Both the position numbers and the translations under genes were made by a program. Positions 1 through 32,488 of a stretch of 32,488 nucleotides of DNA are shown here, piece by piece; position 1 is the first letter of the stretch; the number at the start of each line of letters is the position of its first letter. The notes under the pieces were generated by a model. It did no database searches, was not told the origin of the DNA, and saw only the letters and a program-made list of their open reading frames with translations. The DNA lies in IMG/VR virus record IMGVR_UViG_3300012038_000010; one strand, given 5' to 3'. The stretch is from a virus.

Positions 1-94
1 CAGCCGAACGTAGGTTAGCCGAACGTAGGTCAGCCGAAGATAGGTCAGCCGAATATAGGTTAGCCGAACGTAGGTTAGCCGAATATAGGTTAGC
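1..94. repeat. Continuation of the same 15-bp tandem array at the other window end.
   Basis: A partial unit at 1..10 is followed by units at 11, 26, 41, 56 and 71, then a truncated unit at 86..94. Positions 1..68 are identical to 32421..32488. Confidence 0.97.
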
Positions 95-202
95 TTTTTC
101 TTTTATAGCCTGTTCTACTGTTTTTTTGATTGTATTATCTTCGCACTCATACTCGAATAATACATTTCCTAAAATAGATTTGATTTGAATTTTTGTTTTC
201 AT
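1..202 (-). CDS. Pentapeptide-repeat protein, N-terminal part. The gene continues across the window junction into 32488..31765, giving about 285 aa if the ends are joined by their 68-nt overlap.
   Basis: ATG at 202..200. My translation is MKTKIQIKSILGNVLFEYECEDNTIKKTVEQAIKEK-ANL-YSANL-RSANL-YSADL-SSADL-RSANL-RSAD..., and it stays open to position 1. The frame at position 1 (equivalent to 32421) matches the frame of ORF 31765..31992. The conserved early promoter motif lies 22 nt upstream. This ORF is absent from the supplied track because it runs off the window edge. Confidence 0.8.
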   Translation of the reverse strand, partial: MKTKIQIKSILGNVLFEYECEDNTIKKTVEQAIKEKANLYSANLRSANLYSADLSSADLRSANLRSA

Positions 203-249: not shown

Positions 250-462
250 TTATTTTGTTTTTTTATTAAAATATCTTCTAACTAAATAACCTCGAATAAT
301 GCTAGTAATAAAAAACACAAATGTTATAATAAGGTTTTGCGAAAATGTAACCGGGATATTAAGCACCGGATACAGAATTAATTGTATCACGATGCTAGTT
401 ACTAACCCGATAATAGTTTGCGTAACGCTTTCTATTATTGAAAGTTTTTTAGTTTGGTTCAT
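250..462 (-). CDS. Small membrane protein (about 2 TM segments), translationally coupled to the helicase-methylase gene.
   Basis: 70-aa ORF with hydrophobic stretches IIGLVTSIVIQLILYPVL and LIITFVFFITSII and a basic C-terminus. Its start overlaps the upstream stop as TAATG at 460..464. Confidence 0.7.
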   Translation of the reverse strand: MNQTKKLSIIESVTQTIIGLVTSIVIQLILYPVLNIPVTFSQNLIITFVFFITSIIRGYLVRRYFNKKTK

Positions 463-2642
463 TAGAATAAAGTTAATGTAGAACTTTTTTCTTTTACAAA
501 ATCAGAATGATTCTTTGAATTTAAATGAAAGTAACTTTCTTTCAATTCAATGCTTATACTTTTACGATTCATTTTAATTGCAGAACAACCTTCTGAACCA
601 ATGCCCCCGAACGGGCTTAAAACAGTTTCCCCTTCATTCGAATATAAATGCAATATTCTTTCAATCGTATCTAACTGTAAAGGACAAATATGTTTTTCAT
701 CATTTCCATCGCGACCTGAACGATATTGTAAAGTCCTTCCGTAATCAATATCCATCCAAACAGGCGATGCATATTTCTGCCATAAATCAACCGGCAAATA
801 ATCTAATTCATTTGGATCTTTATCCTGGTGTTTTATTGGAGTTTCATTATCTCCTTCATTTCTGAAAAACAAAACGTAATCAGGAATACCCACTCTACTC
901 ATTACACTATCTTTTTTTATAGTTTTATGTAGCAATCCTAATGCTTTAGTTCTTTGCATTTCAGTTACCGGATTTTTCCATATTGTAGTCCGTGCATGAT
1001 AAATAAAACCTTCTTCTTTAAACCAATCAATTAACATTCCGCTAAAATCTCTTAACCCGATATAACCTTCTTTGCCTTTTTGTATCGGTAAGTCCATACA
1101 ATGAATAGCGCAAATACGACCGCTTTTAAGAACTCTTTTTAATTCAGGGATAAGGAATTTAAAATGCTGCTCAAACTGTTTATAATCGGATACATTACCC
1201 ATATCCTCTTCTTTATCTGAATAAACATAAAGTTCAGCGAATGGCGGAGAAAACACTATCACATCAGCGCAGTTGTCTGGTAATTTTTTAGTTTCCTGTA
1301 CACAATCGCCATTTATCAAATGGTAGTTGTCTGTTTTAATTTCTTTATTCATAATTTTAACTTTTGATTTAGCTGTTTTATAGTTTGTTTCTGCGGAGTA
1401 TAAAGCCATTTCTTTTATACGCTCAAAATGTTGTTTCTCTTTTTCTAAAATAGTGGCACGTACATTTGTCTGGCTTTCTGGGATTAAGATATGAACTGTA
1501 ACTTTATTTTTTTGCCCAAAACGGTAACATCTTCTAACTGCCTGGTAAAATGCTTCAAACTTAAAATCATAAGACATAAATATCATTTGATTGCATTGCT
1601 GATAGTTCATTCCAAAAGACGCTATACTGGTTTTTGTGATCAGAGTTTTAAAATTACCGTTTGCAAATCCATTTAAATGTTTCGCTTTATACTCATGACT
1701 ATCCGACCCTTGCACATTTACGCTATCATCTAACAACTTTGATAATGTATCAGTTTCATTATTTTTCAACCCCCAAACTATCCATTGATTATTATTTGAA
1801 TTAACCAATCCTAAAGTCTTTTGAATACGTAAATCAAAACTCCTGTTTAAGTCTTTGTGTAGTTCCGTAGCTGAAACTGCAACATCTCCAAATAAACTAT
1901 TACTTGTGTTTTCAACCGGAATAATATGCTCAATATATTCTATCTCAGGTAAATTATATCCTTCATCATCGAATCCCAATGTTGCAGGATTATCAATTGC
2001 AATGCTCCAACTTGAAACGTATTTCCAAAATGCATCTTTTGCGTGTTTTCTTAATCTCCATTTTGAAGTTTCCCCACCATCATGAACAAAGAACATTGCT
2101 AGCATTTCTAAATAACTCATTCCTCCTAAAAATTCCGAATGCTGCCCTAATTCCATGTGATCGTTTGGAGAAGGAGTTGCAGTACAGCAAAGTTTATAAG
2201 GAGTATTTTTGAATAACTCAATTATCAAACTTGATGTTTTTCCATCCCTGCCTTTTAAAATACTGCTTTCATCCAAAACAACTCCGGAATAAACTGAAAC
2301 ATCAATATTCTTTAACTGTTCGTAATTGTCAATATCAAAGCAATCTAAATCAACTCCGAACTTGATGGCCTCATTTTTAGTTTGTTCTATAATAGCCAAA
2401 GGTGCTAATATCAAAACTTTCATTTTTGTTTTTAATGATACTTGTTTAGACCATTCCAATTGGCAAAATGTTTTACCTAAACCGCAATCAAAGAACAAAG
2501 CAAATTTCCCTTTGAATAATGCTGTTTTAACTCCGAATTGTTGAAAGTCTTTCATAAGTTTATTTAACTTTTTATCTGACAATTCAAATCCGCTTTCAAT
2601 AAACGTTTTTCTTTTTGTGTCTAAAAATTCTGAATACTCCAT
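462..2642 (-). CDS. Fusion of an SNF2-family helicase (N-terminal) and a beta-class N6A/N4C DNA methyltransferase (C-terminal).
   Basis: Helicase motifs: CGLGKT (I), VVLDESS (II), CTATPSPN (III), QAVRRCYRFGQKNKV (VI). Methyltransferase motifs: GDC..LPDNCADVIVFSPPF (motif IV, SPPF) precedes HICPLQL...VLSPFGGIGSEG (motif I, FxGxG). That order is typical of N6_N4_Mtase enzymes. Confidence 0.85.
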   Translation of the reverse strand: MEYSEFLDTKRKTFIESGFELSDKKLNKLMKDFQQFGVKTALFKGKFALFFDCGLGKTFCQLEWSKQVSLKTKMKVLILAPLAIIEQTKNEAIKFGVDLDCFDIDNYEQLKNIDVSVYSGVVLDESSILKGRDGKTSSLIIELFKNTPYKLCCTATPSPNDHMELGQHSEFLGGMSYLEMLAMFFVHDGGETSKWRLRKHAKDAFWKYVSSWSIAIDNPATLGFDDEGYNLPEIEYIEHIIPVENTSNSLFGDVAVSATELHKDLNRSFDLRIQKTLGLVNSNNNQWIVWGLKNNETDTLSKLLDDSVNVQGSDSHEYKAKHLNGFANGNFKTLITKTSIASFGMNYQQCNQMIFMSYDFKFEAFYQAVRRCYRFGQKNKVTVHILIPESQTNVRATILEKEKQHFERIKEMALYSAETNYKTAKSKVKIMNKEIKTDNYHLINGDCVQETKKLPDNCADVIVFSPPFAELYVYSDKEEDMGNVSDYKQFEQHFKFLIPELKRVLKSGRICAIHCMDLPIQKGKEGYIGLRDFSGMLIDWFKEEGFIYHARTTIWKNPVTEMQRTKALGLLHKTIKKDSVMSRVGIPDYVLFFRNEGDNETPIKHQDKDPNELDYLPVDLWQKYASPVWMDIDYGRTLQYRSGRDGNDEKHICPLQLDTIERILHLYSNEGETVLSPFGGIGSEGCSAIKMNRKSISIELKESYFHLNSKNHSDFVKEKSSTLTLF

Positions 2643-4766: not shown

Positions 4767-5468
4767 TTAAATTTGATTTGTTTTACCTGATATCTTTTTC
4801 CTGAATGATGAAAGGTCTTGTTTTTTTAGCCAATGAGTGAAGTGTTCTTTATAATCTTTTAAATTACTTTTTTGTTCTTCCATTGTTATCAGGTGATCGT
4901 TGAAATTATCTATAAAAAAATTAACTACATCGATACTTATTTTGTTTTGCATTGCCGTTACTTCTAACCATTGGGATGAAATTTTACACTCCGAAGAAAA
5001 AACAACGTTGTTAATAGTTATTATATTTTCTTTTTTAGTTTCTCTTTCTCTTTCTCTTTCTCTTTCTCTTTGCTTCGGTATAGGCTTCTCGTTTTTTTTG
5101 TCAAGGCTTTCAATAGGCTTCGTAGTAGGCTTCGTAGTAGGCTTCGCAGTAGGCTTACTTTTTTTACCTCCTGAACTACCTCCGCGCACTAATTTTAAAC
5201 GGTTTTCGCATGAAGGAACGAATAAAAAATTATCATTAATATTTACAAGATTTAACCTAATTAATTTATCAATTATTGTATTGATTTCATCAAAATTAAC
5301 TGCAAATTTTCTGCACCATGTATCAATTTTAATTTCGGTCTTGTTATCGTTCATCATCGCAAGGTCAATTAATTCACGATATAAACCGCGCTCAGATAAA
5401 TTTAATTCGAATACATGTTCTGAATTACCCCAGTCTTTAGGATAAAAAGTATAACCAAGTTTAGCCAT
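4767..5468 (-). CDS. DUF1376-like replication-associated protein (putative initiator or helicase loader) with a low-complexity linker.
   Basis: The N-terminus YTFYPKDWGNSEHVFELNLSERGLYRELIDLAMM fits the DUF1376 pattern. The linker is KPTAKPTTKPTTKP...RERERERERE. It sits directly upstream of the primase-helicase gene. Confidence 0.6.
   Translation of the reverse strand: MAKLGYTFYPKDWGNSEHVFELNLSERGLYRELIDLAMMNDNKTEIKIDTWCRKFAVNFDEINTIIDKLIRLNLVNINDNFLFVPSCENRLKLVRGGSSGGKKSKPTAKPTTKPTTKPIESLDKKNEKPIPKQRERERERERETKKENIITINNVVFSSECKISSQWLEVTAMQNKISIDVVNFFIDNFNDHLITMEEQKSNLKDYKEHFTHWLKKQDLSSFRKKISGKTNQI
5041..5156. repeat. Internal DNA repeats: (TCTCTT)x5 at 5041..5070, and five TAGGCTT copies at 5081, 5114, 5126, 5138 and 5150, the last four forming a 12-bp tandem.
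   Basis: Read directly: tctctt x5, then taggcttctcg...ataggcttcgtag taggcttcgtag taggcttcgcag taggctt. Confidence 0.9.
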
Positions 5469-6398: not shown

Positions 6399-6932
6399 TT
6401 ATTTTAAAGTTGTTTTTAATTTTTCTTTCAAGTCAAATACTGCTGTACTTGGTATTTTAATTGCTGAATAAACCTTTTTAAGTTCGTCTAAAGTAGTACA
6501 TGAGTTTAAACGGTTAATATTCCTGTCCTCTTCGCTGTGTGTTTGTTGTTCGGTCTTTAAATTACTGCTAGCGTTCCCATCATCATCCACAGCACCTACG
6601 CAAAGAAGTGATTGTAAGCCGTAACGTCTTGCATAAGTAAGTCCTGAGCCTTGACTTTGTGCATCGTTTTGCTTTGATACAACGACTTTTGTAACGCTTT
6701 CAATAGTTTCCCCACTTTCATGTAAAAGAAGCGTTTTAACGTACATTTCACCGTTTATCTCAATCATAGGCTGTAACACTACAATCTTGTTTTCGTTTAG
6801 TGCAGGTATAACAGCTTCACGGATTGCGTTTAAATCGGCATAACTATTTTTAAGAAATGGATTCTTTGCGTTTTTCTTTGCATTGCTCATTTGTGACTGA
6901 GCGGTTATTAATGCTAAAGCGATATTTTTCAT
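6399..6932 (-). CDS. erf: ERF-family single-strand annealing protein (recombinase).
   Basis: NPFLKNSYADLNAIREAV and GSGLTYARRYGLQSLL are characteristic ERF blocks. Confidence 0.75.
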   Translation of the reverse strand: MKNIALALITAQSQMSNAKKNAKNPFLKNSYADLNAIREAVIPALNENKIVVLQPMIEINGEMYVKTLLLHESGETIESVTKVVVSKQNDAQSQGSGLTYARRYGLQSLLCVGAVDDDGNASSNLKTEQQTHSEEDRNINRLNSCTTLDELKKVYSAIKIPSTAVFDLKEKLKTTLK

Positions 6933-19558: not shown

Positions 19559-20065
19559 TTAATTAGTTGTTATTTCTTTTAATTTTTTTTCGTATGCTAA
19601 GTGTGCTTCGTGTTCGTCTGTGAATAACCCTAAATGTTTTAATTTCTTTTTAATACTTATATACGCCTTCCATTTGTTTGAATTCTTATCCCAACTAACC
19701 CCAACAAATTTACTGCTACTTGGTATGTGTTTCATATTTGAATTCTCTCTAGCTGTAACTATTTCTAAATTATCAACGTGGTTGTTTTGTTTATTAAGAT
19801 CAATATGATTAACAACTATGTTATGACTTTTTATCTTATGATTTAAAAAATAAAAAGCTACTAACTGATGTGTTATAAAAGTCTTTTGCTTTCCGCCCTT
19901 ATTAAGGGTTACGCTATAATAACCTCTAGACGTTAGGCCTTGCTTTAATATTTTTTCCTTAACCAAATGGCCTATATGACTTAGTCTTCTTAAACTTTTT
20001 ACATTTCCAAGATTACTAATTTGATACATTTTTTCATAGCCTTCAATATCTTTAAAAACTTCCAT
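19559..20065 (-). CDS. HNH homing endonuclease (NUMOD4, HNH_3 and AP2-like DNA-binding domains).
   Basis: FKDIEGYEKMYQISNLGNVKS (NUMOD4), HQLVAFYFL...VNHIDLNKQNNHVDNLEIVTARENS (HNH), KFVGVSWDKNSNKWKAYI...LGLF..EHEA..AY (AP2). Start trimmed to the ATG at 20065 (MEVFKDIEGY...). Confidence 0.85.
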   Translation of the reverse strand: MEVFKDIEGYEKMYQISNLGNVKSLRRLSHIGHLVKEKILKQGLTSRGYYSVTLNKGGKQKTFITHQLVAFYFLNHKIKSHNIVVNHIDLNKQNNHVDNLEIVTARENSNMKHIPSSSKFVGVSWDKNSNKWKAYISIKKKLKHLGLFTDEHEAHLAYEKKLKEITTN

Positions 20066-20175
20066 AATAAAAAAAAGATAAGCTTTCGGGGTTACGGCCT
20101 TACTCACTTATCTTTTAAATTGATTTCTTTTATATCGACCCGTAACTTTCGATAACCAAAGATACGAAAATATTT

Positions 20176-28863: not shown

Positions 28864-29070
28864 TTAATTTTGTCTTAAATCAATTTCTTTTCCTGTGAAT
28901 TCATCTACTTCAGAAACGAACTCGCCCATAATCGACAGGTACGGAAAATATTTTTTCACATATACCTCCGCATCCTGTTGACTATCTGAGTACACATCAT
29001 TACCTACGAATGTTTTTATACTTCCATCCGTGCGATCAATTGCTTTAAACGATGTAGTAAATCTTTTCAT
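28864..29070 (-). CDS. Hypothetical protein (68 aa).
   Basis: ORF only. Confidence 0.5.
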   Translation of the reverse strand: MKRFTTSFKAIDRTDGSIKTFVGNDVYSDSQQDAEVYVKKYFPYLSIMGEFVSEVDEFTGKEIDLRQN

Positions 29071-29087
29071 TGTACTAATATACTAAA

Positions 29088-29240
29088 TTATTGTTCTAGT
29101 TGTTCAGTTGTATAATTATCTAACGCAAACTGTTTAACTCTTTCATCACTTGATTTATAGAAGTGCTTTGCTGTTTGTAACGTGATCTTTGATGATTTCT
29201 TAACCTGAACTAAATTAATTGCTTCGTCTAGGTAAATCAT
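29088..29240 (-). CDS. Small hypothetical protein (50 aa), below the ORF-track cutoff.
   Basis: Hand translation: MIYLDEAINLVQVKKSSKITLQTAKHFYKSSDERVKQFALDNYTTEQLEQ*. Confidence 0.4.
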   Translation of the reverse strand: MIYLDEAINLVQVKKSSKITLQTAKHFYKSSDERVKQFALDNYTTEQLEQ

Positions 29241-29241
29241 A

Positions 29242-29481
29242 TTAGAATTTATACCCATCGTTAAGATGTTTTTGTATGTTGTCAGGATGTACTAATTTAG
29301 AAACTTTACCTAAGTTCATAAAGCGATAACCCTTTTGCAGCTTAAACACTTCATTTGCTTTGGCAATTTCCAACGCTGTCATTGCTTTGGCTTTCTCTTT
29401 GGCCTCCGCACTATTGCCGTGAATCTTATTAGTGTCTAACTCGGTAACGTTTTTCGGGTTTAATTTATTCTTTAGTGACAT
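29242..29481 (-). CDS. Hypothetical protein (79 aa).
   Basis: ORF only. Confidence 0.5.
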   Translation of the reverse strand: MSLKNKLNPKNVTELDTNKIHGNSAEAKEKAKAMTALEIAKANEVFKLQKGYRFMNLGKVSKLVHPDNIQKHLNDGYKF

Positions 29482-29692
29482 GATATATTTTTTTTACGGT
29501 TGTGTTTTTAAATACTTCAAATGTTATTCCTGTGTATGCTTCTTCACTGGTTTTAAATGAAACTATTTCTTTACCCCCTGATTTAGTTATGTAAGGCAAT
29601 AGTATTTCTTTGCCGTGAAAGTTACGATCAACATAGTAAACTTCAAATCTATTTTCATTGTTTTCTTTGATTACAAATTCAGGTTTCGGCAT
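29465..29692 (-). CDS. Hypothetical protein (75 aa).
   Basis: ORF only. Confidence 0.5.
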   Translation of the reverse strand: MPKPEFVIKENNENRFEVYYVDRNFHGKEILLPYITKSGGKEIVSFKTSEEAYTGITFEVFKNTTVKKIYHVTKE

Positions 29693-29695
29693 AAT

Positions 29696-29884
29696 TTACT
29701 TTTTTCTAGTTCCAGTTATTAATTTCGTTTTGTGGATCGTGTACTCTTTATGTTCAATAGGAAAATAAAGCATCTTCAAAGAGTGATACGGGAAACCCAT
29801 GTTATCACAAGCAACTGTTAAAGCTGTGAATGTTTGCGGATCTTCGTCCTTTTTGTTTACTATTATGATATGTTTCTGATTCAT
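29696..29884 (-). CDS. Hypothetical protein (62 aa), possibly translated from a leaderless mRNA.
   Basis: The ATG at 29884 lies only 2 nt from the promoter motif, that is 4 nt after the -7 box TATCTTTA. Confidence 0.5.
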   Translation of the reverse strand: MNQKHIIIVNKKDEDPQTFTALTVACDNMGFPYHSLKMLYFPIEHKEYTIHKTKLITGTRKK

Positions 29885-31261: not shown

Positions 31262-31762
31262 TTAAAATTTAAATCCGGCTCTTACAAATCCACTTCCTTG
31301 AAACTCCTCTTTTGCACCGCTCCAAATGAAGTCCTCTCTATAGTCGTACGTCGCACGTAATCCAACAAACCAAACATCATTAATATTGTAGTCAGTTCCT
31401 GCTTCTAATCCAAACAAAGGATAAGTACGTGAATCATTTGTTTTGTACCCTCGTTTGATAAACCCTAATCTTATCCCTGCATAGCTTCTAAAGTCCTCAA
31501 ATGTTCCATAAGTTACATTCACACCCCCAGCGCCTGTTAAATCAAAATACCCTCCTTCTAAAGCGTCAAACGATTGTACTCCGGCCTTAACGTAACCGCC
31601 ATAAGAAACAAGTTCGATTTCCGCGCCTAAGTTTAAACCGCTTTCTTTTATGCTCCCACCAGGATCGACGTAAACCGAACCCGTAAAATATTCCTTTTGC
31701 CCTAATTGTAACTGCGCGCTTGCTGTCATTCCGACTAATAACGCAAATAATAATGTTTTCAT
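31262..31762 (-). CDS. Small outer-membrane beta-barrel protein (OmpX/Lom-like size class).
   Basis: Signal peptide MKTLLFALLVGMTASAQ. The body has alternating Gly/aromatic beta-strand patterns, and the C-terminus GFVRAGFKF ends in Phe (an OMP beta-signal). The gene starts 3 nt after the pentapeptide gene stop. Confidence 0.7.
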   Translation of the reverse strand: MKTLLFALLVGMTASAQLQLGQKEYFTGSVYVDPGGSIKESGLNLGAEIELVSYGGYVKAGVQSFDALEGGYFDLTGAGGVNVTYGTFEDFRSYAGIRLGFIKRGYKTNDSRTYPLFGLEAGTDYNINDVWFVGLRATYDYREDFIWSGAKEEFQGSGFVRAGFKF

Positions 31763-31764
31763 AA

Positions 31765-32488
31765 TTAACTGTTTAAATGGTTTAAATATGCTTTGTAACT
31801 TTCGAAAATCGCTTGTATTTGTTTAAATTCATGAGTGCCTCTTCTTGTTGAATACTCTTCATTGGAATCAAAAAATATCTGCCATTCTTCAACTGATTTT
31901 GTTTTACACCCTATTTTTATTTTATCCCCCAAAATTGAATGCTCCCATTTGCAATATTGTGACAAATACGCTGATTCTTTGTTTTTAGCCAAATATAGGT
32001 CAGCCGAAGATAGGTCAGCCGAAGATAGGTCAGCCGAAGATAGGTTAGCCGAATATAGGTTAGCCGAAGATAGGTCAGCCGAAGATAGGTTAGCCGAAGA
32101 TAGGTCAGCCGAAGATAGGTTAGCCGAACGTAGGTCAGCCGAATATAGGTCAGCCGAATATAGGTTAGCCGAAGATAGGTTAGCCGAATATAGGTCAGCC
32201 GAAGATAGGTTAGCCGAACGTAGGTCAGCCGAAGATAGGTCAGCCGAAGATAGGTTAGCCGAACGTAGGTTAGCCGAACGTAGGTCAGCCGAAGATAGGT
32301 CAGCCGAATATAGGTTAGCCGAAGATAGGTCAGCCGAACGTAGGTTAGCCGAACGTAGGTCAGCCGAAGATAGGTCAGCCGAATATAGGTTAGCCGAAGA
32401 TAGGTTAGCCGAAGATAGGTCAGCCGAACGTAGGTTAGCCGAACGTAGGTCAGCCGAAGATAGGTCAGCCGAATATAGGTTAGCCGAA
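31765..32488 (-). CDS. Pentapeptide-repeat protein, repeat body plus C-terminal domain (same gene as 1..202).
   Basis: The track ORF 31765..31992 starts at a TTG, but the same frame has no stop upstream through the whole array to 32488. Each unit reads (S/R/Y)-S-A-(D/N)-L. The C-terminal part ...CKWEHSILGDKIKIGCKTKSVEEWQIFF... resembles the conserved tail of this class of pentapeptide proteins, judged from memory. Confidence 0.8.
   Translation of the reverse strand, partial: SANLYSADLSSADLRSANLRSADLSSANLSSANLYSADLSSADLRSANLRSADLSSANLYSADLSSADLRSANLRSANLSSADLSSADLRSANLSSADLYSANLSSANLYSADLYSADLRSANLSSADLSSANLSSADLSSANLYSANLSSADLSSADLSSADLYLAKNKESAYLSQYCKWEHSILGDKIKIGCKTKSVEEWQIFFDSNEEYSTRRGTHEFKQIQAIFESYKAYLNHLNS
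31996..32488. repeat. Tandem array of the 15-bp unit TAGGTYAGCCGAANN: 32 full units plus 13 nt.
   Basis: Units start at 31996 and every 15 nt after that (for example 32041, 32101, 32161, ..., 32476). Twelve of the 15 positions are invariant in every unit. Position 6 is C or T. Positions 14-15 are GA, CG or TA only. Confidence 0.97.

What the first reader, a model, noticed from the sequence alone, without database searches (positions are those of the whole stretch)
31996..32488. Array variation is restricted to 3 of 15 nucleotides, is always non-synonymous, and uses only 2 x 3 states
There are 34 non-redundant units in total, 32 full ones in this window end.

Pattern of variation:
- Twelve nucleotide positions are invariant. 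I saw no synonymous or other substitution among roughly 400 invariant-position nucleotides.
- Position 6 is C or T, giving codon GAC or AAC (Asp or Asn).
- Positions 14-15 are only GA, CG or TA, giving codon TCT, CGT or TAT (Ser, Arg or Tyr). These three dinucleotides differ from each other at both positions, and no single-step intermediates are present.
- My counts are 17 Ser, 9 Arg and 8 Tyr, and 18 Asp and 16 Asn. Arg pairs mostly with Asn within a unit (7 of 9).
- A 75-bp higher-order block (units encoding Y/D, S/D, R/N, R/D, S/N) recurs exactly.

Interpretation:
- In the pentapeptide fold, A (i-2) and L (i) point inward. The variable residues (i-1 and i+1) are solvent-exposed. The array therefore looks like an invariant scaffold displaying a combinatorial surface of Asp, Asn, Ser, Arg and Tyr.
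- The pattern is not what point-mutation drift would produce. It suggests very recent expansion and shuffling of a few unit types by slippage or unequal recombination. The 15-nt unit keeps the frame, so this would give length and pattern variation rather than on/off switching.
- Alternatively there may be an extra DNA-level constraint, such as iterons or binding sites superimposed on the coding sequence.
Basis: seen in the sequence. Interest (0 to 1): 0.75.

Follow-up and report, generated by a model that had tools for sequence, protein, structure and literature searches.

The report
Self-homogenising pentapeptide-repeat gene in a phage
The repeat is the middle of a phage gene for a rod-shaped pentapeptide-repeat protein; its 15-base units stay identical except at the codons for surface residues, and about 60 related phage lineages show the same pattern, which points to a fast-evolving binding surface of unknown target.

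Summary
The 34 canonical 15-nt units (coding strand is minus: GCT RAC CTA [TCT|CGT|TAT] TCG = A-D/N-L-S/R/Y-S) are invariant at 12 positions and use 2 x 3 states. One sub-claim is wrong: TCT and TAT differ by a single base. The unit count is uncertain because the contig ends inside the array.

The array is the core of a 285-aa pentapeptide-repeat protein (Pfam PF00805, E=1.8e-44). It has a conserved N-terminal cap and a conserved C-terminal domain with no match to any solved structure.

The pattern is family-wide. In 59 independent lineages, probably Flavobacterium phages, within-array variants are 19 synonymous against 260 non-synonymous (68 synonymous expected, P=8e-15). They sit at the three solvent-exposed positions. 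Each lineage uses its own synonymous codons for Ala and Leu.

Arrays are identical between independent samples at 99.57% flank identity or more. They differ in number and order in every pair at 98% or less, and in two pairs above 99.5%.

Best explanation: concerted evolution by slippage or unequal recombination, plus selection that keeps a mixed exposed surface. This is the regime known from fungal NLR repeats and TALEs, and I found no report of it for pentapeptide repeats or phages. The iteron, DGR and assembly-artefact readings are rejected. Function is inferred only: an intracellular binder or decoy encoded in the recombination/replication module.

The parts
95..202 (-). N-terminal cap domain of the repeat protein (codons 1-36, ATG at 200-202): MKTKIQIKSILGNVLFEYECEDNTIKKTVEQAIKEK
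   Evidence: ORF reconstruction. The domain is conserved in relatives. AF2 predicts a beta-hairpin plus helix at pLDDT 91-93.
1..94 (-). First about 6.2 units of the 15-nt array (N-terminal end of the array). Bases 1-68 duplicate 32421-32488.
32005..32488 (-). Main body of the array: canonical units GCT RAC CTA (TCT|CGT|TAT) TCG = A(D/N)L(S/R/Y)S.
   Evidence: Twelve of 15 positions are invariant and there are six unit types.
31990..32004 (-). Terminal 35th unit GCTGACCTATATTTG (ADLYL), a degenerate C-terminal edge unit.
31765..31989 (-). Conserved C-terminal domain (AKNKES...CKW...IGCK...EW..FF.S.EEYST.R.T.EFKQIQA..ESYKAYLNHLNS) plus stop codon at 31765-31767.
   Evidence: 17 and 75 IMG/VR loci. 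229 protein clusters at 50% identity. Invariant columns are listed. AF2 gives three short strands plus two helices at pLDDT 83-94. No PDB fold match.
32421..32488 (.). Terminal 68-nt overlap with window 1-68: the contig is 'circularised' inside the array. The same sequence recurs within the array, so the join and the unit count are ambiguous.
32220..32220 (-). The only array difference from the independent metagenome contig L018: G to A on the + strand, CGT (Arg) to TGT (Cys) in a variable codon.
6399..6932 (-). Erf-like single-strand annealing protein of the same phage. Inferred, not shown, to contribute to recombination between repeat units.
   Evidence: phrog_2324/155, E=5e-41. In 12 related loci an Erf gene lies a median of 172 nt downstream of the repeat gene.

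Best explanation
What it is. The array is the coding core of an intact gene on the minus strand. The gene wraps round the contig ends and encodes a 285-aa pentapeptide-repeat protein in a roughly 32-kb tailed phage, probably of Flavobacterium. The protein has an N-terminal cap, at least 34 A(D/N)L(S/R/Y)S units (about 8.5 coils of a four-sided beta-helix), and a conserved C-terminal domain of about 65 aa with no match to any solved structure.

How the pattern arises.
1. The perfect 15-nt units are continually duplicated, deleted and exchanged by replication slippage and unequal or single-strand-annealing recombination. This is concerted evolution. It removes neutral (synonymous) differences between units faster than mutation makes them.
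2. Ala (i-2) and Leu (i) are fixed by the fold.
3. Ordinary point mutations at the three solvent-exposed codons are kept at intermediate frequency by selection for a mixed surface. The alphabet here is Asp/Asn x Ser/Arg/Tyr. Across the family the commonest residues are N and D at i-1; R, S, Y and E at i+1; and G, S and N at i+2.
4. The result is an invariant scaffold with a re-patternable surface. Length and order change in frame between closely related phages.

Shown: the gene and domain structure, the family-wide pattern, the excess of non-synonymous variants, lineage-specific backbones, and array turnover relative to the flanks.

Inferred: the recombination mechanism, and selection as the cause of the pattern.

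Inferred with low confidence (about 0.3): the protein is an intracellular, early-expressed binder or decoy for a host or competitor macromolecule, perhaps a DNA-processing enzyme. This rests on its position in the recombination/replication module and its mildly acidic rod shape. The C-terminal domain would then serve oligomerisation or an effector role.
For: Gene and fold:
- ORF and unit table.
- PF00805 at 149.3 bits against a cut-off of 20.2.
- PDB pentapeptide-repeat proteins at E=1e-25 to 1e-35. Foldseek top hits are all pentapeptide-repeat proteins.
- Buried and exposed positions from PMC2964730.

Family:
- 17 + 75 IMG/VR loci and 4 Flavobacterium MAG contigs share the N- and C-terminal domains.
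- 229 protein clusters at 50% identity.

Concerted evolution:
- Each lineage has its own codons for Ala (GCT/GCA/GCC/GCG), Leu (CTA/CTG/CTC/CTT/TTA/TTG) and Ser. Within an array these are uniform.

Selection:
- In 59 independent lineages there are 19 synonymous and 260 non-synonymous variant states, with 68 synonymous expected (P=7.7e-15). 43 of 59 arrays have none.
- Amino-acid variation occurs at codon 2 in 56 lineages, codon 4 in 56 and codon 5 in 46. It occurs at codon 1 in 5 and codon 3 in 5.
- The trio CGT/AGT/TAT recurs on different backbones. The window and L035 use TCT for Ser.
- D/N and S/R/Y combine freely.

Turnover:
- All 19 pairs with flanks at 98% identity or less differ in unit number and order.
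- L079/L086 (99.5%) differ, and L098/L004 (99.9-100%) have 3 against 21 units.
- Higher-order repeats have arbitrary periods of 3 to 8 units, not the 4 of a coil.

Not an artefact:
- Four pairs of contigs from different samples, with flanks at 99.57% identity or more, have identical arrays.
- L018 reproduces the 18 units nearest the C-terminus of this window.

Context:
- Erf, SSB, primase-helicase and an SNF2-methylase fusion are in the window.
- Erf-like and exonuclease genes lie just downstream in 12 related loci each.
Against: - Selection is inferred from a count of variant states, not from a recombination-aware codon model. Duplicated variants are not independent events within an array, although lineages are.
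- A few arrays carry synonymous variants (19 in all), and one relative (L017/L093) has an ordinary degenerate array. The regime is therefore not universal.
- Arrays are identical across samples at 99.57% flank identity or more, so turnover is evolutionary rather than hypervariable within populations.
- No reads were available. The N-terminal half of this window's array and its unit count are not independently verified.
- Function is untested. Array net charge is only about -0.2 per unit on average and is positive in 11 of 76 arrays, which fits a strict DNA mimic poorly.
- The N- and C-terminal domains have no PDB fold match and there is no PADLOC hit.
- The AF2 model of the array is of low to moderate confidence.
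Confidence: 0.75

Rival explanations
1. Neutral recent amplification. A few unit types that happened to differ at three positions were amplified very recently by slippage. No selection acts on the variable sites.
For: Exact 89-, 74- and 67-nt internal repeats show recent block duplications. In this window alone, 3-4 non-synonymous states are not statistically unusual.
Against: The same pattern recurs in 59 independent lineages, with 19 synonymous against 260 non-synonymous variants. The same Arg/Ser/Tyr and Asp/Asn polymorphisms sit on backbones that differ at synonymous sites. Seeds taken from a diverged array such as L017 would carry synonymous differences (11 of 28 variants there).
Confidence: 0.1
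2. Assembly artefact. The array is collapsed, consensus-smoothed or mis-ordered by a short-read assembler, and the real units carry scattered substitutions.
For: The contig begins and ends inside the array with a 68-nt overlap that recurs internally. At least 13 related contigs also end in their arrays.
Against: L018, from another metagenome, has the same 18 units in the same order, with one substitution. Four pairs of contigs from different samples have identical arrays of 16-34 units. Scattered substitutions would make assembly easier, not harder. Unit types, as opposed to order and number, cannot be created by a de Bruijn assembler.
Confidence: 0.04
3. A DNA-level element (iterons or protein-binding sites of a replication origin) is superimposed on the coding sequence and enforces nucleotide identity.
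For: The array lies in the replication/recombination part of the genome. It is 35 tandem copies of a 15-mer.
Against: Between lineages the 15-mer differs at synonymous positions while A-(D/N)-L is kept. The variable bases are exactly the exposed-residue codons. The same C-terminal domain is joined to unrelated repeats such as GGEFL, GTWED, hexapeptides and LRR-like units. The unit is absent elsewhere in the genome.
Confidence: 0.03
4. Targeted hypermutation, as in diversity-generating retroelements, acts on the variable codons.
For: Variation is confined to the first or second codon positions of surface residues, as in DGR targets.
Against: No reverse transcriptase among the ORFs scanned. No template copy of the unit elsewhere. 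There are only 2-4 states per site rather than a spectrum. The changes are not adenine-specific (G/A, and TC/CG/TA).
Confidence: 0.01
5. Functional rival. The protein is a Qnr/MfpA-like or Gam/Ocr-like DNA mimic that blocks a host DNA enzyme (gyrase, RecBCD/AddAB, restriction or BREX). The surface variation tunes charge rather than specific recognition.
For: It has the pentapeptide-repeat fold. 62 of 76 arrays are net negative, and the window protein has pI 5.1. In 12 related loci each, an Erf-like gene and an exonuclease gene lie just downstream of the repeat gene, which recalls lambda gam-bet-exo (the lambda order is from my own knowledge).
Against: Qnr and MfpA models score far below their cut-offs (60.9 against 240; 55.6 against 360). 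The charge is weak (-0.19 per unit) and positive in 11 arrays. The C-terminal domain is unrelated to the Qnr/MfpA dimerisation helices. The same C-domain is fused to non-pentapeptide repeats.
Confidence: 0.2

Closest known systems
Pentapeptide repeat proteins (Pfam PF00805; e.g. Np275/276, HetL, Rfr23, MfpA, Qnr)
   Same: Tandem A(D/N)LXX units. PF00805 scores 149 bits. Sequence and fold matches are to solved pentapeptide-repeat proteins. Positions i-2 and i are buried and the others exposed (PMC2964730).
   Different: Known members have degenerate repeats with ordinary synonymous divergence. Here the units are identical at the nucleotide level apart from the surface codons. The N- and C-terminal domains are specific to this phage family, with no Pfam, NCBIfam or PDB match. 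Qnr and MfpA model scores are far below their cut-offs.
Repeats with high internal conservation in fungal NLRs (WD40, ANK, TPR; HET-E/D, NWD genes)
   Same: Near-identical repeats, repeat-number polymorphism and concerted evolution. Positive diversifying selection acts on a few positions that map to the interaction surface (PMC4986451). All of this is paralleled here.
   Different: A different fold (beta-solenoid with a 5-aa unit, against 34-42-aa repeats). There is no NOD/STAND domain. The gene is in a phage, not a cellular immune receptor. RIP-type mutation does not apply.
TAL effector repeat arrays with repeat-variable di-residues (from my own knowledge)
   Same: The repeats are almost identical at the DNA level. 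Variation is confined to the codons of the ligand-contacting residues. Arrays are re-patterned by recombination.
   Different: TALE units are 33-35 aa and read DNA bases one per repeat. No code or target is known here, and no per-coil periodicity was found.
Phage DNA-mimic inhibitors next to recombination genes (lambda Gam, T7 Ocr and gp5.9) (from my own knowledge; Ocr and ArdA papers listed)
   Same: A small, acidic, elongated early protein. In many relatives it is encoded immediately upstream of the Erf-like annealing protein and an exonuclease.
   Different: No sequence or fold relation. The charge density is much lower. No functional data.

Membership tests
Pentapeptide repeat protein family (PF00805) | Tandem five-residue repeats fitting A(D/N)LXX | tested here: met
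   35 consecutive units A(D/N)L(S/R/Y)(S/L).
Pentapeptide repeat protein family (PF00805) | Profile score above Pfam gathering threshold | tested here: met
   149.3 bits against 20.2, E=1.8e-44.
Pentapeptide repeat protein family (PF00805) | Right-handed quadrilateral beta-helix, four repeats per coil | tested here: inconclusive
   The AF2 model has a beta-bridge every 5 residues over residues ~83-213 at pLDDT 57-82, but residues 45-93 are below 50. All Foldseek top hits are pentapeptide-repeat proteins (probability 1.0) with TM-scores of only 0.2-0.5.
Qnr / MfpA gyrase-protecting DNA mimics | Score above the NCBIfam equivalog cut-off | tested here: not met
   Qnr 60.9 against 240; MfpA 55.6 against 360.
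Qnr / MfpA gyrase-protecting DNA mimics | Strongly electronegative rod that dimerises through C-terminal helices | tested here: inconclusive
   Array net charge is -9 in the window. The family mean is -0.19 per unit, with 11 of 76 arrays positive. The C-terminal domain is different and has no PDB match. Dimerisation is not testable here.
Qnr / MfpA gyrase-protecting DNA mimics | Binds or protects DNA gyrase | not testable with these tools
   Needs biochemistry.
Repeats with high internal conservation under concerted evolution and diversifying selection (fungal NLR type) | Repeats of one gene nearly identical to each other at the sequence level | tested here: met
   Twelve of 15 nt are invariant in 34 units. 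43 of 59 lineages have no synonymous variant.
Repeats with high internal conservation under concerted evolution and diversifying selection (fungal NLR type) | Repeat number and order polymorphism between close relatives | tested here: met
   L079/L086, L098/L004 and all pairs at 98% flank identity or less differ. For this window's own lineage only a partial second copy exists (L018), so it is not tested there.
Repeats with high internal conservation under concerted evolution and diversifying selection (fungal NLR type) | Excess of amino-acid-changing variation at surface positions | tested here: met
   19 synonymous against 260 non-synonymous, P=7.7e-15. The variation is at i-1, i+1 and i+2. 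This is a count test, not a codon model.
Repeats with high internal conservation under concerted evolution and diversifying selection (fungal NLR type) | Repeat domain attached to a NOD/STAND NTPase | tested here: not met
   Only the N-terminal cap, the array and the C-terminal domain are present. There is no NTPase domain.
Diversity-generating retroelement target | Nearby reverse transcriptase, template repeat and adenine-specific changes | tested here: not met
   No reverse transcriptase among the ORFs scanned. No second copy of the unit. Changes are G/A and TC/CG/TA.
Replication-origin iterons | DNA repeat conserved as DNA, independent of coding | tested here: not met
   Units differ between lineages at synonymous sites while the peptide motif is conserved.

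The most novel reading that the evidence does not exclude
These phages carry a modular, evolvable 'binder' family. A conserved C-terminal module is joined to interchangeable, self-homogenising solenoid arrays: pentapeptide, hexapeptide, LRR-like, GGEFL-type and GTWED-type. The exposed residues, an antibody-like alphabet rich in Tyr, Ser, Arg, Asp and Asn, are re-patterned by the phage's own Erf/exonuclease recombination system. This would let the protein track or evade variable host targets such as defence or DNA-repair proteins. It would be a phage counterpart of TALE, VLR or NLR repeat diversification that works without a reverse transcriptase.
Probability: 0.2. Interest if true: 0.8.

Novelty: new variant of a known kind. 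Interest (0 to 1): 0.6.

Why it matters
Diversity-generating retroelements are the main described route to targeted protein hypervariability in phages (from my own knowledge). This family suggests a second route that needs no reverse transcriptase: perfect short coding repeats that recombination keeps homogeneous while selection varies only the surface codons.

It offers a natural, minimal, re-patternable beta-solenoid scaffold. It also provides a large comparative data set (about 60 lineages) for studying concerted evolution under selection. And it flags an uncharacterised early phage protein, often encoded beside the Erf/exonuclease genes, as a candidate host-interaction or anti-defence factor.

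Practically, these arrays break short-read assemblies. Unit counts in databases should therefore be treated as uncertain.

Tried and rejected
Searches that found nothing:
- GenBank phage collection, with 3.5 kb of DNA, the whole protein and the C-domain alone: no match. No cultured relative was found.
- Exact unit pattern in IMG/VR and in GTDB genomes: none. One metagenome contig was found (L018).
- Fold search of the N/C-domain model against PDB: nothing at E<=0.001. BFVD returned only uncharacterised phage pentapeptide-repeat proteins.
- PADLOC: no hit. NCBIfam: repeat-only hits. The Alr5209 model passes its cut-off only through summed repeat matches, so I did not take it as membership.
- Literature: no paper found on homogenised pentapeptide repeats or on phage pentapeptide-repeat function.

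Ideas tested and dropped:
- Per-coil (4-unit) periodicity of Arg, Tyr, Ser or Asp: none. Higher-order periods are 3-8 units and differ between arrays.
- Charge pairing of Arg with Asp/Asn at lags 0, +/-1, +/-4, +3 and +5: no consistent association across about 50 lineages.
- DGR: no reverse transcriptase and no template.
- Iterons: rejected on synonymous divergence between lineages.
- Promoter and terminator scans around the gene: uninformative.
Full report
**Observation**

TRF reports a 15-nt array at 31987-32488 (33.5 copies, 89% matches). The same unit is at 1-94. The first 68 nt of the window are identical to the last 68, so the contig was closed, or broken, inside the array. All genes of the window are on the minus strand.

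With the overlap removed, the minus strand gives an intact 285-codon ORF:
- ATG at 200-202 and stop at 31765-31767.
- A 36-aa N-terminal segment.
- 34 canonical units plus a 35th edge unit (ADLYL).
- A C-terminal segment of about 75 aa.

In coding orientation the unit is GCT RAC CTA (TCT|CGT|TAT) TCG, which encodes A-(D/N)-L-(S/R/Y)-S. Twelve of 15 positions are invariant in the 34 units. All six combinations occur: ADLSS 10, ANLSS 7, ANLYS 6, ADLRS 5, ANLRS 4, ADLYS 2.

His higher-order block is real. There are exact repeats of 89 nt at an offset of 6 units, 74 nt at 5 units and 67 nt at 11 units. The unit occurs nowhere else in the window (37 matches against 0.01 expected).

Two corrections are needed:
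- TCT and TAT (GA and TA on the + strand) differ at one base, not two.
- The 68-nt overlap sequence is itself repeated inside the array. The circular join, and so the figure of 34 units, is ambiguous. Only the 33.5 contiguous units at the window end are certain.

**What it is**

The protein is a pentapeptide-repeat protein:
- Pfam PF00805 scores 149.3 bits against a cut-off of 20.2.
- Solved pentapeptide-repeat proteins match at E=1e-25 to 1e-35.
- The Foldseek top hits for the AF2 model are all pentapeptide-repeat proteins, although the model is mediocre (mean pLDDT 69).

In this fold four repeats make one coil. Positions i and i-2 are buried, and i-1, i+1 and i+2 are exposed (PMC2964730).

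The window is a small tailed-phage genome. It encodes terminase, portal, protease, tape measure, endolysin, Erf, SSB, primase-helicase and an SNF2-helicase/DNA-methylase fusion. No reverse transcriptase was found among the ORFs scanned. Four relatives lie on contigs binned with Flavobacterium or Flavobacteriaceae MAGs, so the host is probably a Flavobacterium.

**The family**

The C-terminal domain has the motif CKW..IGCK.KT.EEW..FF.S.EEY.T.R.T.EFKQIQA.YESYKAYL. It recovers the following:
- 17 and then 75 IMG/VR loci.
- 15 proteins in the 5.8-billion-protein set, mostly fragments from short contigs.
- 229 clusters at 50% identity, 73 of them at E<=1e-10.

Members share the plan of N-terminal cap, repeat array of 5 to 55 units, and C-domain. 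The N- and C-domains have no Pfam, NCBIfam or PADLOC match and no PDB fold match. BFVD returns only uncharacterised 'pentapeptide repeat' proteins of uncultured phages. No cultured phage in GenBank has it.

**The pattern is family-wide**

I extracted the arrays at the DNA level and kept one array per group of loci with more than 85% identical flanks. This left 59 independent lineages.
- Within-array variant states are 19 synonymous and 260 non-synonymous, with 68 synonymous expected from the codons used (binomial P=7.7e-15).
- 43 of 59 arrays have no synonymous variant at all.
- Amino-acid variation occurs at codon 2 (i-1) in 56 lineages, codon 4 (i+1) in 56 and codon 5 (i+2) in 46. It occurs at codon 1 (Ala) in only 5 and at codon 3 (Leu) in 5.

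Between lineages the synonymous positions are thoroughly diverged: Ala is GCT, GCA, GCC or GCG, and Leu is CTA, CTG, CTC, CTT, TTA or TTG. This is the signature of concerted evolution. One relative (L017/L093) has an ordinary degenerate array, with 11 synonymous and 17 non-synonymous variants. This shows what an unhomogenised array looks like.

**Selection rather than a recent accident**

If turnover is fast enough to erase synonymous differences, neutral surface differences should be erased too. Yet nearly every array keeps two to four states at the exposed codons, at intermediate frequency.

The same alphabet recurs on different backbones. The trio Arg CGT, Ser AGT and Tyr TAT at i+1 appears in lineages whose Ala, Leu and Ser(i+2) codons differ. 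The window and L035 reach Ser through TCT instead. Across lineages the commonest exposed residues are as follows:
- At i-1: N (54 lineages), D (47), Y (10).
- At i+1: R (45), S (35), Y (21), E (14).
- At i+2: G, S, N.

TGT (Cys) occurs in L036, L094 and L018, and CAT (His) in L030 and L038. Ordinary point mutation therefore supplies the states.

D/N and S/R/Y are combined freely within units (chi-square p=0.27). No consistent pairing of Arg with Asp or Asn exists at any lag across about 50 lineages. No 4-unit (per-coil) periodicity exists. Higher-order repeat periods are 3-8 units and differ between arrays, as expected from arbitrary block duplications.

**Tempo and reliability**

With arrays masked, flanks were compared all against all.
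- Four pairs of contigs from different samples, with flanks at 99.57% identity or more, have identical arrays of 16-34 units: L052/L053, L039/L040, L035/L069 and L056/L059.
- The metagenome contig L018 is identical to the window over 2.4 kb except for 3 nt. It has the same 18 units nearest the C-terminus in the same order. Its only array difference is CGT to TGT in a variable codon, at window 32220.

The unit types and much of the order are therefore real and not assembler noise.

Conversely, all 19 pairs with flanks at 98% identity or less differ in unit number and order while sharing the same backbone. L079/L086 (99.5%) have 19 and 17 units. L098/L004 (99.9-100%) have 3 and 21 units, with the deletion falling between two identical ADLSF units.

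Arrays therefore change much faster than flanking sequence, but not so fast as to differ in every sample. At least 13 related contigs, this window and L018 all end inside the array. Array length in short-read assemblies is therefore unreliable.

**Rejected alternatives**

- Iterons: the DNA unit is not conserved between lineages, whereas the peptide is. The same C-domain is fused to unrelated internally homogeneous repeats: GG(E/Y)F(L/R), G(T/V)W(E/K)(D/S), hexapeptides and LRR-like units of about 20 aa.
- DGR: there is no reverse transcriptase and no template repeat, only a few states per site, and the changes are not adenine-specific.
- Assembly artefact: see the previous section.
- Qnr/MfpA membership: model scores are far below the cut-offs.

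**Function (inferred)**

In relatives the gene lies among early DNA-metabolism genes (loci not de-duplicated):
- An Erf-like annealing protein lies a median of 172 nt downstream in 12 loci.
- An exonuclease lies downstream in 12 loci.
- A VRR-NUC-like nuclease lies upstream in 7 loci.

In the window the gene follows the Erf/SSB/primase-helicase/SNF2-methylase block. The protein has no signal peptide by inspection, has pI 5.1, and its arrays are mostly mildly acidic (62 of 76; mean -0.19 per unit), with 11 positive.

My best guess is an intracellular binder or decoy aimed at a host or competitor macromolecule, possibly a DNA-processing enzyme. The gene order resembles lambda gam-bet-exo, but that is an analogy from my own knowledge and not a test. 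The C-domain would then provide oligomerisation or an effector function. Confidence in this is about 0.3. The weak and variable charge argues against a strict DNA mimic.

**Comparison with known systems**

The closest described evolutionary regime is that of the 'high internal conservation' WD40/ANK/TPR repeats of fungal NLRs. These show concerted evolution, repeat-number polymorphism and positive selection at surface positions (PMC4986451). TALE repeat-variable di-residues are a second analogue (own knowledge). This family meets the three sequence-level criteria of that regime, but it has a different fold, has no NOD domain and sits in a phage.

I found no paper describing this for pentapeptide repeats or for phage proteins. 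I therefore rate it a new variant of a known kind.

**Verdict**

Scaffold plus combinatorial surface, and slippage or unequal recombination, hold. 'Very recent expansion' is replaced by persistent homogenisation plus selection. Iterons are rejected.

Noticed in passing
Proteins P0038, P0150, P0101, P0133, P0145, P0130, P0136, P0138, P0164: The same conserved C-terminal domain is fused to other internally homogeneous repeats: GG(E/Y)F(L/R), G(T/V/I)W(E/K)(D/S), hexapeptides such as (I/G)(G)(Y/N)Q(Y/D)V and SGNARV, LRR-like units of 20-22 aa, FNGAS/FNDAR and L(D/V)GA(I/S/R). There are also two alternative N-terminal caps. This suggests a modular design of conserved module plus swappable solenoid.
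   Followed up: partly
window 29053-29850 against L018: L018 differs from the window at about 100 positions in the first 800 nt, but at only 3 in the next 2.4 kb. This is a sharp mosaic (recombination) boundary near 29850, in the small-gene region upstream of the terminase.
   Followed up: no
window 462-2642 (-): A 726-aa fusion of an SNF2/helicase-C domain with an N6/N4 DNA methyltransferase domain (Pfam, PHROG and PADLOC MTase_II hits). It lies about 260 nt upstream of the repeat gene and may be a phage self-methylation or anti-restriction function.
   Followed up: partly
window 31262-31762 (-): A 166-aa ORF immediately downstream of the repeat gene. It has a weak match to the outer-membrane beta-barrel family (PF13505, E=7e-4, below cut-off) and, by inspection, a signal-peptide-like N-terminus. 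This is unusual cargo for a small phage.
   Followed up: no
window 5039-5156, within ORF 4767-5468 (-): Two further short coding tandem repeats (TTTCTC x5.5 and a 12-mer x3.6) encode RERERERERE and KPT(A/T)KPTTKPTT linkers in a DUF7833 protein.
   Followed up: partly
window 19559-20107 (-): An HNH endonuclease gene lies between the tape-measure-like gene and the head protease/portal region. It is possibly a mobile or packaging-associated HNH.
   Followed up: no
L098 against L004: Contigs from different data sets with 99.9-100% identical flanks carry 3 and 21 units. The junction lies between two identical ADLSF units. A MEGAHIT k141 contig spans the short form, which suggests a real deletion variant rather than a collapse. 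This was not proven.
   Followed up: partly
C-terminal domain, window 31765-31989 (-): Two invariant cysteines (CKW ... IGCK, 14 residues apart) and invariant Trp, Phe, Arg and Lys across the family. They could form a metal site, a disulfide or an interface. No fold match was found.
   Followed up: no
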